Positions 15,001-30,000 of a stretch of 64,000 bases of DNA are shown here, piece after piece. The stretch spans positions 256,001 to 320,000 of the forward strand of contig CBDANC010000015.1 in assembly GCA_965197425.1 (NCBI GenBank). The letters run 5' to 3'. This DNA comes from Bdellovibrionales bacterium. Lineage in GTDB: Bacteria > Bdellovibrionota > Bdellovibrionia > Bdellovibrionales > JAUICD01. The position numbers were made by a program. Numbering within the stretch: position 1 is the first letter of the stretch; every line of letters starts with the position of its first letter.

Positions 15001-18000
15001 AAACCTGATCTCTGCACAAAAACGTAATATAAATACTTTTTGTGGAGATGTAATATCTGATTACTATGAAGAAAGCCCAGAAAGCCTAACCTTTTTTGCT
15101 ACTACAAAATACTTGTTAGCTGCAACTGATAATGATGCATACAATACCTTGATATGTAGTACATTTGTAAAATCACAGGATGTAGATTATCCATTATATT
15201 TATCAACACATGAAGACATAAAAAGCTCAACTCTTGTAAAAGGGCTTATAGCATTTGATGGAAACATTAGGTATGAACAGTTGATAGAAAAACACTTTAT
15301 AGGATGGAAGTTTAAAAGTTTTGTGATCGATGAATCCTTTGACTATGATAAATTCAAAAATGAAAATAAAAAGGCGGCAATACCAATTTTTCTACTAAGC
15401 AAGTCTAATACAATAGAATTTGAACGGATCAGAAATAGTTTGAAACCAGTCGTAGGAGATAAATTATATTGTTTTGTTGCCAGTGATTTTGATTTTAAAG
15501 CTAGTGAGACAAATTAGGAGGTAAATTCAGTGTCAAAAAGCCATAAATCAATAAAGCATTTTATTTATCGTTTAATGTTTCATGTAGAAACTCCTGCTGA
15601 AAGGTCATTTGATATTGTACTTTGGGTAAGTATAAATTTATCCATTGCATCAGCTATACTTGGAACTTATGAAAATATAAGGCTAGTATTTGGGAGTTTT
15701 CTAGGTAAGGCAGATTGGTTTTTCACCATATTATTTACCATAGAATATATTGCTAGGATATGGTGTGCTGAAGATCGAAAAAAATATATATTTAGCTTTC
15801 TAGGTATAATTGATTTTATTGCTGTAATACCTACGTACTTTGCTCTTATTATTCCCGATGCTCAGCTTTTTATTTTTTTGAAATTGTTTAGAACAGTAAG
15901 GCTAATAAGGTTACTTAAATTCTATAGCGTACTAGGTCTTAGTGCTTATCTTAGAGAGTCACAGAAATTATTTGATGCTATTCGTGCCAGCAGACAGAAG
16001 ATATCAGTATTTTTAGTTTTTGTGATAACTTTTATGTTTATAGGCGGAGCATTGATGCATATAATAGAGCATAACAACCCTGGCTTTACAGGTTTTTTTC
16101 AATCTATATATTGGACCGTAGTTACAATAACTACAGTTGGTTATGGGGATATTACTCCCATTACACCATTAGGTAAAATACTTGCGTCGTTAATGATGTT
16201 GATAAGTTATGGAGTGATAGCTGTCCCCACAGGTCTTATTTCAGCGGAGATAGTTAAAGCAGAAATTAAGAGGGAGAGACCGTGTAACCAATGTGGTACT
16301 GTATTATTATCAGAATCTAATTATTGCCATAGTTGTGGAGACAATGTAATAGAACAAACTCAAACAAAACGATAATAGTGTGTATATCGTGATGGTAGGT
16401 AGTATTCAGTAACAAGCAGGATGTTAAAATGAGAAATGACAACAGAGACAATTTAGAGCTTAGGCCAATAACTCTTACACCACATTGTATTAGATATGCG
16501 GAAGGTAGTGTTCAGTGTGAGTTTGGGAATACCAAGGTTGTGTGTACTGCTAGTGTGGAGGATAAACTGCCTAAATGGCTTATGGGCCAGGAATCTGGGT
16601 GGGTGAGTGCTGAATATTCCATGTTACCTAGATCAACGCATACAAGGATGAATCGAGATAGGGCCTCTAACTCTGGGAGAAGCAGGGAAATTTCTAGGCT
16701 TATTGGGAGAAGTTTAAGAGCTGTCACTGATCTCAAAAAATTAAAAAATTATTGTATAACAATTGATTGTGATGTGATTCAAGCTGATGGTGGTACAAGG
16801 GTAGCCAGTATAACTGGTGGTTTTGTAGCTTTGGTTTATGCCTTACAAAAATTAGTTAAAAAAGATGTTATAGGCAATATACCTATAACAGATTATGTAG
16901 CAGCTGTAAGTGTTGGTATATCCGATGAAAAGCTATTAGTTGATCTTAACTACGAAGAAGATAATAATGTGGACGCTGATATAAATGTTGTTATGACTGC
17001 TTCTGGTAAGATTGTAGAAATACAAGGTACAGCAGAGATAAAAACCTTTACTAAAGAAGACATAGTAAAAATTTTGGAAATCTCGGAGCAGAAAATCAGT
17101 CAGATTGCCTTAAAACAAAAAGAGCTTTTGGGATGGGATCCAGAATAGAGGTGTGGCTTGCCACAAATAACAACTCTAAGCTTAAAGAGTTTAAGAAGTT
17201 GCTACCTGAAAGCGTGCTTATTAAATATAATCAAGATTTTATTCTCCCTGAAGAAACTGGTAAGACATTTATAGAAAATGCAAACATAAAAGCAAAGGCA
17301 CTTTTTGCTCATTCAAAAACCTGGACAATGGCTGATGACTCTGGGCTTGTTGTTAAGAGTTTGAATAATAGACCCGGTATTTATTCAAAGAGGTTTGCAG
17401 GGGAAAGTGCTACAGATCAGGATAACATTAACAAAGTATTAAGTGAGTTAAAAGGTGTAGATGATAGAAGTGCATATTTTATCACTGTTATATCGTTGAT
17501 AAAGCCATCTGGTGAAATTCATAATTTTGAAGGTAGACTTGAAGGAACTATTACTCATAGTAGTAGGGGGGAGTTTGGATTTGGATATGATCCAATATTT
17601 ATTCCCAACGGTAGCGATAAAACTTTAGCCCAAATGGAAAGTTTTGAAAAAAACAATTTGTCTCATAGGTACAAAGCGGTGAGAAAGTTAATACCAATTA
17701 TTGATTGAACACTAACGATGAACCGGGAGGAACTTAGTTCATTCGCTGTTCCAATAATACTTCAGCCTGTTCTAGATCACGAAGTGCTATGGTTAAATTG
17801 ACATTATCTTTATCACATTCCGGATGAACATCTACACCTTCAAACAATATATTTTCTATTCCTGGAAGTTTTTTATCTTCTTCACTAATTTTTTCTGTAA
17901 GCTGGGGTGTTATAGGATTATGTGTTATATTAAATCTCCTATTATATTCATTTAAAAATGAATGAGTTTGTTTAAGATGAACAATTAAGTTTTGGGTTTC

Positions 18001-27000: not shown

Positions 27001-30000
27001 TTTTATTTACAAGCTAAAACCCCAGTAAGAGATTTTGTGTATGACAATTTACACACAAGAGAAAAGATAGATGTTAGGAACAGCTACCTACAGTCCAATA
27101 GCGAGGTATGTGGGTATAGCCTTTCAGAGGGTGAAAACAGAGCAGATTTTAATACAAAATCTGAAGAGCTAATAAACAAAAGCATATTATCATCAGGTTA
27201 CCAGTATACCAAGGAACTTTGTCCTTCATTGGTTCAATTACCTAATTTACTAAACAGAGATTTTACAAAAAATTTGAATAAAGTAGTTGATGTTACTCGG
27301 ACAGTTCCAAATCCAAAAACAACCCTTCAAATGGTATACGATAACGGTCACGGAATTAACCCTGACGGCATTGGAGTTCGGGTAATTCCGGGTCCGGACA
27401 TAAGTATTCAAGAGATACTCTTAGATAACATATTTAAGCATCAAGAGGTGTTGGTTAATTACTATGGGGCAATTGGAGAAAGGGTAAGACATTTATATGA
27501 ATCATGGCGCACATTTTTTGAGCCCTATGAGCTTAATGTTCACACTGTTACAAGCTTTTATTATTCTATAATAAAACACAAAGGTCAGAATCTATTTCCA
27601 GAGGGTTTTGATTACTGGAAGAGTAAGGGGGTTATGGACTCTATGTTCTACAATGTTAGACCTCTCGAAAATGCAGTACAACAAACCTCTAGCAGATTGA
27701 CCTGGGAAAATTATTTGGCACGCCTAGGAGTTGATAGCAAAGCGATAGTAAAGTTTTCCAATAACCAACTAAGGCCAATACACAGAATGCTATTAAGTAT
27801 GAGAACACTATTTGGTAATAACCCAAGTGAGGAAAGGAAGGCAGCTATAGAGTTTTTAAATAATGGGTTTAGTCCTACTCATTTAGGAAGATTCAAGAAG
27901 TACGACTATCAGGTAAGAAACTATGCCATAAATAAAGGTTTAAAGCTAGAAGTAGTAGATAAGCTAGATACCAATGCAATTCAAAAGACAATTGATCACT
28001 TGGAAGGTTTGGATCCTTGGGATGTGCCAACTTATATATATGCTCTAAACACTGGTAGGTTTAAATTGAATGATTTAAAAAACACGTCAATAGAAAGCCT
28101 CACACAGAGTTTGGGGGGCAGACAAGCTATTTTACTTTCCATATCTCAAGATCAAATCAGGTACTTGAGTGGGGAAACCATACCACTGGTAGATCCATCT
28201 ATGCGTTTTGAAATAACATCATCTATCCACAGTGAAACATCAGAAACAGGTACAATTAAAGATGGCATTGTTTATAAAAACAATTTGGAAGAAATTTTGA
28301 TTCACATGACCTGCGGAAAAGCCCCAAATGAGATGAGCAACCTTTTATCACAAGAGGCTGGTCAAAATAGAATGGCTAGAAGGAGGAATATACTGGGGCC
28401 ACTTACTCTTACGCCTCCTAGATTATTAAGGAAAAATGAAGATATATGTTCTTATAGAAAGCCAGGATACTGGTATAATCGTATACACAACGAATTTTTC
28501 GATAAAACTCGAAGAAAAATGTATGCAAATTTGCTAGATTATGCTATACAGAATGTACACCTTACGGAGCCAGAATTCATAGACTGGTGGTCTGGTATTC
28601 AAGGCAGAAACGATATTGAATACAAGAGGTATTTCGAAAAATATAGAGAATCTGTCCAAGCTCATATAACTAGTGCTTTCTACACTGATTCATACGATAG
28701 GTTTACTGGTGGCTTGGTAGGAGCGGTATTAAATTTAATTAAAGATAGTAAAACAGACACGTCTATAAAATCACTAAGCTTTGCAAATGGAATAAAAAAC
28801 TTATCTGATGATTATGTAGATTACTATCTTAGAATATTGGCGTTAATTACTCCAAGAGATAAAGAGTTTTTAGAAAGGATGTATGGATTTATTGATGCAA
28901 TTAGAGAGCTTACAATAAACTCTGAAAATTATGATGGAGAAATTAGATGGCGGTTTTCTAGTTTGGAAGAATATATAAAGGATGAAAAAATAAATAATGA
29001 AGGTTGGCACCAGTCGTATTTTGAAGATATGTCCGATATTGATTGGTATAAATTAGTGGTTAGTGAGTTACTGAAGAATATGAGTTTTGAATTTGAAAAT
29101 CAACTAGCTTTAAGAAAAACAGACTTAAACATTGAGGAAGACAATGCTGTGGCATTAGGTCAAATTGCAGACAATATTCTTAATAATATAGATGAGATTA
29201 TACAGCAAAAAGTTACATTTTCTTTGATGACACAGGTATTGCAGACAAGATAGGAGGATTTATATGAAATATTCTTTACATATCATGATTGTATTCATTT
29301 TCGTTGGGTTCAGTGAAACTGTTCAGGCTCAAAGGGGCGGTAGAGCCATGTACAGACCATCTAGTGTGAACATGGATGCTCCAAGAACTCATATGAATAC
29401 TTTAAATACGCTCAAAAGGTCAAGACGATCTATATGGGAAATGGCTTCTAAAAGAAGTAATGGCAATGGTACTAGAGCAACAAGTACTGACATAGTAGCA
29501 AGTGAATCTCTTGTTAAAGAATTTAAGGATAGATTTGGCTTAAAAGATATGGATCCTAATGTTAGTGCTACTTTAACTAATACGCTTGCTACGAATAGAG
29601 AAGCGAGAGCATTCATGAGCACGCTTAAATCCAGATCAATCGAGTTGTCCAAAAGAGACAGGCAGATAACTCGTGAAGAGTTTGTTTTAAGAAAACAACT
29701 TGTTGAGGCGGTAGCATTGAGTGGATCATATATGAGTACTTTTTTGAAAGACTCAATTTACAGGTTTGGTACTGCTAATCCAAATATTGTATCATTTAGA
29801 TCTAGAATTCTGTCAGAAGCAATGGACAGAATGCAGATAGTATCCCCAGAAATTACAAATTTTTCTCGTGTGTTAAATCAGGTATTAACCAGAAATGGTA
29901 TAGGTAGATCCGAAAGAAGACAGTGTATGTAGTATTCTGGCACTCAGGCAATAGAAGACTTTTAGCACCTGGAGTTGTATTACACCTTACAAAGCTGGGC

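What a model noticed while it worked through the whole genome (the two positions that open the first line are those of the whole stretch)
17734..29932. Six-gene locus of secreted all-helical novel-fold proteins with hydrophobic hairpins
g01309-g01314 form a divergent six-gene locus of signal-peptide proteins (222-1159 aa), mostly helical, four with internal Gly/Ala-rich hydrophobic segments, syntenic in G001 and partly clustered with g00046 in G004. They may assemble into a multi-subunit membrane-inserting pore or translocon used on the host or prey membrane. g01313 has a confident model with no solved-structure match, so this would be a new pore-forming architecture.
Evidence so far: Order and orientation are kept in G001 at 40-51% identity. 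G004 has g00046-g01309-g01310-g01311 homologues in one run, and g01313 plus a g01314-sized gene next to the exported Hsp100. g01310 is found only within the family (3 of 21, call 182); g01311 and g00046 in 4/4 family genomes and not in G037; g01313 has a distant B. bacteriovorus-like homologue. g01313 model pLDDT 78.6, pTM 0.73, no PDB match at E<=0.001. No Pfam family over cut-off.
(Added by a program. Inside this text positions count along the whole contig: contig position 256,001 is position 1 of the stretch shown here. "Call 12" and the like, gene names such as g00115 and contig names such as C1 are that model's own, and its searches are not shown. The text may have been shortened before it was handed on; [...] marks where a part breaks off. 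The agent that wrote the report below was given it as the finding of a first reader that could run no searches.)

Follow-up and report, generated by a model that had tools for sequence, protein, structure and literature searches.

The report
Bdellovibrio prey-entry protein pair plus partners
Six neighbouring genes in a small-genome relative of the predatory bacterium Bdellovibrio encode predicted exported proteins of no known family; the largest is the counterpart of an uncharacterised protein that Bdellovibrio makes more of as it enters prey, is kept with a small neighbouring partner gene across most of its order, and likely acts on the target cell's envelope, while a six-part pore remains unproven.

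Summary
The six ORFs, their order and the synteny in G001 are real, but the locus is two modules. Module B (25774-29932) corresponds to B. bacteriovorus HD100 Bd0173-Bd0172. The large protein is found in 170 of 201 genomes of the order. A small exported partner with one C-terminal cysteine lies beside it in 16 of 20 diverse loci. In published HD100 data both proteins peak at prey entry, and Bd0173 is weakly detected in killed, uninvaded prey. Neither gene (mapped by position) is needed for predation in Tn-seq. Module A (17734-25626) was found only in this family (5 genomes). A terminator separates the modules; they are adjacent in 2, perhaps 3, of 5 family genomes. The hydrophobic segments are moderate: only P0002 and the conserved N-terminal third of the Bd0173 family stand out from shuffles. 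Best reading (0.38): an exported contact-stage effector acting on the target envelope with a periplasmic escort or self-protection partner, plus a family-specific parallel set. The six-subunit pore is possible (0.13) but unsupported. The scan had not noted this family elsewhere.

The parts
17734..18828 (-). P0001 (g01309), 364 aa, predicted exported; module A; hydrophobic segments near residues 143-161 and 211-229
   Evidence: ORF; family alignment; profile finds 5 of 151 order genomes, all this family; two copies in G002
18825..18839 (-). GGAGG ribosome-binding-like site and GTGA stop/start overlap joining P0002 to P0001 (likely translational coupling)
   Evidence: sequence read directly
18825..20882 (-). 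P0002 (g01310), 685 aa, predicted exported; module A
   Evidence: found in 3 of 41 relatives and 3 of 5 family genomes by profile
20025..20474 (-). hydrophobic, Gly/Ala-rich block of P0002 (residues 137-286), the strongest membrane-insertion candidate of the locus
   Evidence: mean KD 0.44 over 150 aa, 1 of 1000 shuffles reaches it; one of 4 of 123 long non-polytopic G000 ORFs at p<=0.01; segments at 227 and 269 conserved in 3 sequences
20884..24294 (-). P0003 (g01311), 1136 aa, predicted exported; module A; hydrophobic segments near 109, 805, 845 and 913
   Evidence: alignment; profile finds 5 of 201 order genomes, all this family; segments, not above shuffles
24769..25626 (+). P0004 (g01312), 285 aa Ala/Ser-rich predicted exported protein with two conserved cysteines, divergent from P0003; module A
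   Evidence: invariant C210, W214, C274 in 4 sequences; 5 of 151 order genomes; divergent neighbour of the P0003 homologue in G001, G002, G004 and 13 kb away in G003
25662..25693 (.). 14-bp hairpin with A-run before and T-run after, likely a terminator that ends the P0004 transcript before P0005
   Evidence: -19.7 kcal/mol, z -4.58, 0 of 200 shuffles
25774..29253 (+). P0005 (g01313), 1159 aa, predicted exported; orthologue of B. bacteriovorus HD100 Bd0173; module B
   Evidence: identity of Bd0173; 170 of 201 order genomes; 748 representatives at 50% identity
26119..26883 (+). conserved N-terminal domain of P0005 (residues 116-370) with five to six charge-poor, Gly/Ala/Ser-rich, moderately hydrophobic segments
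   Evidence: family-mean KD 0.76-1.25; most hydrophobic 150-aa window starts in the first 35% of the chain in 142 of 145 members
29264..29932 (+). P0006 (g01314), 222 aa, predicted exported, no hydrophobic segment, single C-terminal cysteine (C221); positional orthologue of Bd0172; module B
   Evidence: C221 invariant in 10 and in 36 aligned partners; partner beside the large gene in 16 of 20 loci; HD100 neighbour CAE77840.1

Best explanation
The locus joins two sets of predicted exported proteins, and the order-wide pair P0005-P0006 (Bd0173-Bd0172) is likely a contact-stage effector with its partner: the large protein would leave through Sec and probably the type II secretion system and act on the envelope of the prey or host through its conserved hydrophobic N-terminal domain, while the small soluble protein would stay in the producer's periplasm as escort or self-protection. 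Shown here: the genes, the two distributions, the conserved pairing, the match to Bd0173, the terminator, a GspC-D-E-F-G cluster in G000. Taken from papers: induction of both HD100 proteins at entry, two Bd0173 peptides in uninvaded killed prey, no fitness cost. Inferred: export route, target, membrane action, binding of the two proteins, and that module A (P0003-P0002-P0001 with divergent P0004) is a family-specific set working in the same way.
For: P0246 (CAE77841.1, HD100, 921 aa) has monoisotopic mass 102,963.28 Da, equal to the 102.9633 kDa listed for Q6MRB7/Bd0173. A profile of eight close P0005 homologues scores it at E 3.3e-21 (Z 5e9) and P0005 is its only phmmer hit in G000 at E<=1. 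Bd0172 rises log2 2.05 and Bd0173 log2 1.03 at 30-45 min, then both fall; both are among 40 proteins of entry cluster A with the prey-wall enzymes Bd0886 and Bd1176 (PMC12546842 supplements). Both are on the predatosome sheet of PMC2797640. Bd0173, not Bd0172, is listed in empty bdelloplasts (PMC11003981). Partner adjacency 16 of 20 loci against 55 of 517 background ORFs. Hydrophobic block at the same place in 142 of 145 members. GspD, GspE, GspF, GspG over cut-off in G000. The six proteins and g00046 diverge faster from G001 (41-50%) than 30 other orthologues of the fetched loci (median 64.6%).
Against: Only 2 peptides, 2.28% coverage, score 0 in empty bdelloplasts, and the authors note carry-over from broken predators. 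Tn-seq fitness of the genes mapped by position is 1.32-1.54 and 1.96-2.25, against below 0.1 for predation genes. 82 of 145 family members have no window of KD 1.6 or more; only 59 of 145 have a hydrophobic block at p<=0.05, and P0005 itself does not (p 0.41). No sequence likeness to any pore-former. Entry cluster A also holds the producer's own TonB/TolQR-type proteins Bd0412-Bd0418. G000 lacks YkuD transpeptidases and has 152 ankyrin matches, so its target may not be bacterial prey. No functional data exist for module A. No fold or complex could be computed.
Confidence: 0.38

Rival explanations
1. The pair is part of the producer's own envelope: a periplasmic or inner-membrane-tethered complex that remodels or braces the cell pole when the cell attaches or squeezes in, with the hydrophobic helices as marginal anchors.
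For: In 8 of 20 diverse loci the pair lies directly beside the PPIase gene that follows the tolQRAB-type cluster (names from the 109J table). Single copy in most genomes and kept in 1.2-1.6 Mb genomes. Co-induced with Bd0412-Bd0418. Kept in G000, which has no YkuD enzyme.
Against: Segments are well below true inner-membrane proteins of the window (8-14 windows, maxima 2.7-2.8). The tol linkage is lost in this family. Bd0173 is listed in uninvaded prey. No fitness cost although the neighbouring tol genes have no fitness value listed (ND).
Confidence: 0.27
2. The large proteins are exported soluble enzymes or binding proteins of new fold, and the hydrophobic helices are simply the core of a large helical bundle; nothing inserts into a membrane.
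For: Segment counts match composition shuffles. Invariant or near-invariant residues spread beyond the hydrophobic block (W578, P882, C847, C892, W939). Cysteine counts are even in 113 of 145 members, as for a disulfide-stabilised folded protein.
Against: The invariant columns are mostly aromatic, Gly, Pro and Cys; the only near-invariant charged residue in P0005 numbering is R564, so no catalytic set is evident. P0002 has a real hydrophobic block.
Confidence: 0.2
3. One reading: the six proteins, with g00046, assemble into one multi-subunit pore or translocon in the host or prey membrane.
For: All six occur in G000, G001 and G003; in G003 the two contigs that carry the modules end in the same 36-nt variant of an inverted repeat, the only two such copies among 48 matches, so they may be neighbours. 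P0002-P0001 are coupled by overlap. g00046 follows the trio in G003. An exported ClpB-like ATPase lies upstream of the large gene in G003 and G009.
Against: Module B stands without module A in at least 165 genomes. P0002 not found in G002 or G004. g00046 has a third distribution, 24 of 101 genomes, 0 of 19 in family f10, and is unlinked in G000, G001, G002, G004. Three likely transcription units. Dispensable in Tn-seq.
Confidence: 0.13

Closest known systems
B. bacteriovorus HD100 Bd0173 (Q6MRB7) and Bd0172 (Q6MRB8)
   Same: Same family for the large protein; same order large-then-small; signal-peptide-like N-termini; single C-terminal cysteine in the small protein
   Different: Both are listed only as uncharacterised; P0005 is 238 aa longer and about 20% identical; P0006 matches by position and terminal cysteine, about 11% identity to the HD100-type partner; HD100-type genomes gave no match to module A
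Alpha-helical pore-forming proteins and translocators (colicin pore domain, SctB/SctE, tripartite AhlABC/MakABE-type toxins); features recalled, no call
   Same: Exported proteins with Gly/Ala-rich, charge-poor helical segments, encoded in clusters, with a small partner gene
   Different: No sequence or profile match; segments weaker and, except in P0002, not above shuffles; the six proteins are not paralogues; fold not testable here
Bdellovibrio effector with self-protection gene next to it (prey-wall endopeptidase with ankyrin immunity protein; passage seen in PMC13689555)
   Same: Entry-phase exported protein with an adjacent gene for a possible periplasmic partner
   Different: No ankyrin or peptidase domain here; the partner is a fast-evolving protein of no known family
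Bd2209-Bd2212 and Bd2723-Bd2726 predicted complexes of hypothetical proteins (PMC12034629, abstract and methods seen)
   Same: Operons of hypothetical predation-linked proteins proposed to form complexes
   Different: Those were chosen as predation-essential attack-phase genes; the pair here is entry-induced and dispensable in Tn-seq; homology was not tested

Membership tests
Bd0173 family | profile-level homology and reciprocal best match to HD100 Bd0173 | tested here: met
   E 3.3e-21 at Z 5e9; only hit in G000; mass and length identity of P0246 with Q6MRB7
Bd0172 family | small exported protein next to the Bd0173-type gene with one C-terminal cysteine | tested here: met
   16 of the 36 aligned partners were picked by that cysteine
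Bd0172 family | independent sequence homology of P0006 to Bd0172 | tested here: inconclusive
   about 11% identity; profiles that link them contain both ends
alpha-helical pore-forming toxins / translocators | sequence or profile match to a known pore-forming family | tested here: not met
   Pfam; NCBIfam; PDB sequences
alpha-helical pore-forming toxins / translocators | long hydrophobic helical hairpin in a soluble protein | tested here: inconclusive
   significant block in P0002 and in 59 of 145 Bd0173-family members at p<=0.05, not in P0001, P0003, P0005; a few antiparallel couplings among mostly noisy covariation
alpha-helical pore-forming toxins / translocators | pore-former fold and oligomer | not testable with these tools
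alpha-helical pore-forming toxins / translocators | membrane permeabilisation | not testable with these tools
   needs bench work
multi-component (paralogous) pore toxin operon | subunits are homologous to each other | tested here: not met
   BLAST all-against-all; profile pairs P0004/P0006, P0003/P0005, P0002/P0005 probability 0.3-7.8%; other pairs not compared by profile
polytopic inner-membrane protein | several strongly hydrophobic 19-residue segments | tested here: not met
   1-3 windows, maxima 1.6-2.2, against 8-14 windows and 2.7-2.8 in two transporters of the window
DUF4142 (label given to Bd0172 by UniRef) | Pfam DUF4142 match | tested here: not met
   no such family at E<=1 for P0273 or P0011
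type II secretion substrate | Sec signal, no lipobox, and a type II system in the genome | tested here: inconclusive
   signals judged by eye; gsp cluster present; substrate status cannot be read from sequence

The most novel reading that the evidence does not exclude
Bd0173-Bd0172 is an order-wide, so far unrecognised membrane-breaching module of new fold used at prey or host contact, and this family has extended it with P0001-P0004, g00046 and in some genomes an exported ClpB-like ATPase into a multi-subunit translocon.
Probability: 0.15. Interest if true: 0.87.

Novelty: new variant of a known kind. Interest (0 to 1): 0.55.

Why it matters
How Bdellovibrio breaches and kills prey is still open: a 2026 review says many invasive processes are unexplained and does not mention Bd0173 (PMC13689555, passages). 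This work ties an anonymous locus of an uncultured 1.6-Mb relative to two genes of a genetically tractable strain and shows that they form a pair kept in most of the order, including the species named Pseudobdellovibrio exovorus (P0013; its epibiotic habit is recalled) and genomes of 1.2-1.6 Mb, but rare outside it (3 of 155 other genomes of the phylum). That makes the pair an immediate target for deletion, tagging and structure work, whichever explanation holds.

Tried and rejected
Complex prediction: not available, no verdict. Genome-contig scan with P0005 found no relative. ESM Atlas gave only 0.75 scores for P0005 and Bd0173 and held no model. Word-based protein searches gave 4 hits for P0005 and 2 for the P0003 profile; they are insensitive here. 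Covariation on 176 sequences (effective 119) for 351 positions was mostly noise. P0004 as a paralogue of P0006: a weak hit (E 0.0007) did not hold once signal peptides were removed. Extra domains in 25 family members, most of them long: none over cut-off. Promoter scan: 38 sites against 49 expected, uninformative. Sequencing runs: no RNA holder listed; no reads laid. ADP/ATP translocase search: nothing rang, controls included, so no conclusion. Horizontal acquisition: GC of the locus (0.34-0.37) equals the window, no support. Searching the Tn-seq supplements by HD100 tag failed because they use 109J tags. Earlier findings: nothing by sequence, one unrelated note by place. Lifestyle paper search gave nothing that I read.
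Full report
Observation. The window is G000:C15:256001-320000 of a 1.60-Mb genome, 99% complete. The six ORFs are as described; I call them P0001 to P0006 from left to right. Each begins with a hydrophobic stretch ending in a small-residue motif (judged by eye). None reaches a Pfam or NCBIfam cut-off, and none has a paralogue in G000. G001 keeps all six in order at 41-50% identity. P0002 overlaps P0001 by GTGA behind a GGAGG site, P0003 ends one base before P0002 starts, and a 14-bp hairpin with a T-run at 25662-25693 follows P0004 (z -4.58). 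Three transcription units are therefore likely: P0003-P0002-P0001, P0004, and P0005-P0006.

Module B is Bd0173-Bd0172. Homologues of P0005 in named Bdellovibrio genomes lie upstream of a gene of about 220 aa and, in strain Bd16, directly follow a thioredoxin gene. The HD100 member P0246 (CAE77841.1, 921 aa) has the monoisotopic mass 102,963.28 Da, the value listed for Q6MRB7/Bd0173. A profile built only from eight close P0005 homologues finds it at E 3.3e-21 for a database of 5e9, and P0005 is its only hit in G000. The neighbour is CAE77840.1, which by position is Bd0172. The large protein is found in 170 of 201 genomes of the order, 103 of 121 of the class, and 3 of 155 genomes of the phylum outside the order; 748 representatives at 50% identity match. 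In 20 loci that I chose for family spread and contig length out of the 170, 16 have a 170-320 aa ORF with a cysteine in its last ten residues within 700 bases, against 55 of 517 such ORFs in G000. In the first ten relatives, chosen only by P0005 similarity, 8 have it directly downstream, one three genes upstream and one not nearby. All 36 aligned partners carry exactly one cysteine in their last 150 residues, 0-6 residues from the end; 16 of them were picked by that feature. Homology of P0006 to Bd0172 rests on position and this cysteine; identity is about 11%.

What papers say about the pair. PMC12546842 (passages; supplement rows and file 4; file 6 unreadable): both proteins are among 40 in the entry-peak cluster, Bd0172 log2 +2.05 at 30 min and Bd0173 +1.03 at 45 min, and the discussion names Bd0173 as one of two signal-peptide proteins shared with the empty-bdelloplast proteome. 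PMC2797640 (supplement rows only): both on the predatosome sheet (Bd0173 1.58/1.45-fold, t-test 0.007; Bd0172 2.11/2.11-fold, 0.066). PMC11003981 (supplement rows, passages, section 9): Bd0173 with 2 peptides, 2.28% coverage, score 0; Bd0172 not listed; carry-over from broken predators is acknowledged. PMC6561027 (passages and supplement rows): the two 109J genes next to the thioredoxin gene EP01_RS12640, which I map by gene order to Bd0173 and Bd0172, have fitness 1.32-1.54 and 1.96-2.25, whereas predation genes fall below 0.1. A full-text search for Bd0172-Bd0176 found two versions of one study, with Bd0173 named once in each and Bd0172 never; a 2026 review does not name Bd0173 (passages). 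I found no paper on the conserved pairing in these searches; subscription papers are not covered.

Module A is confined to the family in these searches. Profiles of P0003, P0004 and P0001 hit only the five family genomes (5 of 201, 5 of 151, 5 of 151); they are built from 4-5 sequences, so remote members may be missed. P0002 was found in 3 of 5 family genomes. P0004 is the divergent neighbour of P0003 in G000, G001, G002 and G004, and 13 kb away in G003. P0001 is doubled in G002 and unlinked in G004. g00046 (G000:C6:16147-19752) follows the trio only in G003 and occurs in 24 of 101 order genomes. The modules are adjacent in G000 and G001 and far apart in the single-contig genomes G002 and G004. 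In G003 they lie at the ends of two contigs that both stop in the same 36-nt variant of a repeat that elsewhere occurs mostly as inverted pairs; these are the only two full copies of that variant among 48 matches. The contigs may thus be neighbours, which would make the six-gene order older than this genus.

Hydrophobic segments. P0001, P0002, P0003 and P0005 have 1, 1, 3 and 1 windows of KD 1.6 or more; P0004 and P0006 have none; two transporters of the window have 8 and 14. Counts of charge-poor segments do not exceed shuffles for any protein. At the scale of 150 residues only P0002 stands out (residues 137-286, 1 of 1000 shuffles); P0001, P0003 and P0005 do not. In the Bd0173 family the most hydrophobic block starts in the first 35% of the chain in 142 of 145 members and is significant at 0.05 in 59 and at 0.01 in 25 (kin are not independent), while 82 of 145 have no window of 1.6. 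So there is a conserved, moderately hydrophobic, Gly/Ala/Ser-rich N-terminal domain, which fits a facultative membrane-inserting bundle or an ordinary helical core. Covariation shows an i+3/i+4 pattern and a few antiparallel pairs between these segments but is mostly noise. No profile matched a solved structure by sequence, and the families compared do not match each other.

Mechanism. Shown: exported-type N-termini, two modules, conserved pairing, a gsp cluster in G000. From papers: entry-phase induction, weak detection in prey, dispensability. Inferred: the large protein crosses the outer membrane, reaches the target envelope and acts on it through the N-terminal domain, while the small soluble partner stays behind as escort or guard; redundancy among exported effectors would explain the lack of a fitness cost. 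I give this 0.38. A complex of the producer's own envelope gets 0.27, because the pair sits beside the PPIase gene after the tol cluster in 8 of 20 loci. A soluble enzyme or binding protein gets 0.20, and the six-subunit pore 0.13. The target in G000 is uncertain: it has 152 ankyrin matches, no YkuD transpeptidase, one DacB and four secretins, a profile that I recall as typical of eukaryote-associated bacteria rather than periplasmic invaders.

Verdict. A real and well-conserved feature whose value lies in the link to Bd0173-Bd0172. It works most likely like an exported effector with a partner, is not shown to be a member of any pore-forming family, and is filed as a new variant of a known kind, interest 0.55.

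Noticed in passing
window 39385-41939, 45997-47872, 59450-61129 and genome-wide: Five ankyrin-repeat ORFs in the window and 152 Ank_2 matches in the 1.6-Mb genome, with no YkuD L,D-transpeptidase found: unusual for a Bdellovibrionales-type predator and suggestive of a eukaryote-associated life.
   Followed up: partly
L017:16196-18964 (G003), L137:12139-14829 (G009), G000:C14:178709-181516: ClpB-like AAA+ ATPases with signal-peptide-like N-termini; in G003 the gene overlaps the start of the P0005 homologue, in G009 it lies two genes upstream on the same strand; the G000 homologue (935 aa) is elsewhere and showed no canonical Walker A by pattern.
   Followed up: partly
L041:14083 to L042:6285 (G003:C22): Three large ORFs with signal-peptide-like starts (806, 2163, 1094 aa) between the P0003 and P0004 homologues; weak PrkA AAA hit in the first, SpoVR plus DUF444 fused in the third: looks like an exported PrkA-YeaH-SpoVR set.
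   Followed up: partly
L017:8098-12111 (G003:C14): 1337-aa protein with signal-peptide-like start that joins ClpB-type AAA domains to an M41 (FtsH-type) peptidase domain, convergent with the P0006 homologue.
   Followed up: no
G003, 48 places: Dispersed repeat of about 30 nt, mostly as inverted pairs (REP-like); not found in G000 or G001.
   Followed up: partly
L154:7794-10574 (G046): A second copy of the Bd0173-type gene without the small partner next to it.
   Followed up: no
L164:8278-12123 (G108) and L162:8133-11709 (G350): The Bd0173-type gene is split into two ORFs in these two genomes; assembly error or real split not examined.
   Followed up: no
window 48248-53068: N6/N4 methyltransferase with an Mrr-type nuclease domain, a Bro-N protein and an AbiJ-NTD4/DUF7014 protein lie together, a likely small defence island.
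   Followed up: no
G000:C6:16147-19752 (L071:6148-9753): g00046, 1201 aa, no Pfam or NCBIfam family, present in 24 of 101 order genomes by single-protein search but 0 of 19 in family f10; near a Tad-like pilus cluster in G000 and G001.
   Followed up: partly
window 32411-33280: Exported MepA-type murein endopeptidase (Peptidase_M74) 2.5 kb downstream of the locus, also kept in G001.
   Followed up: no
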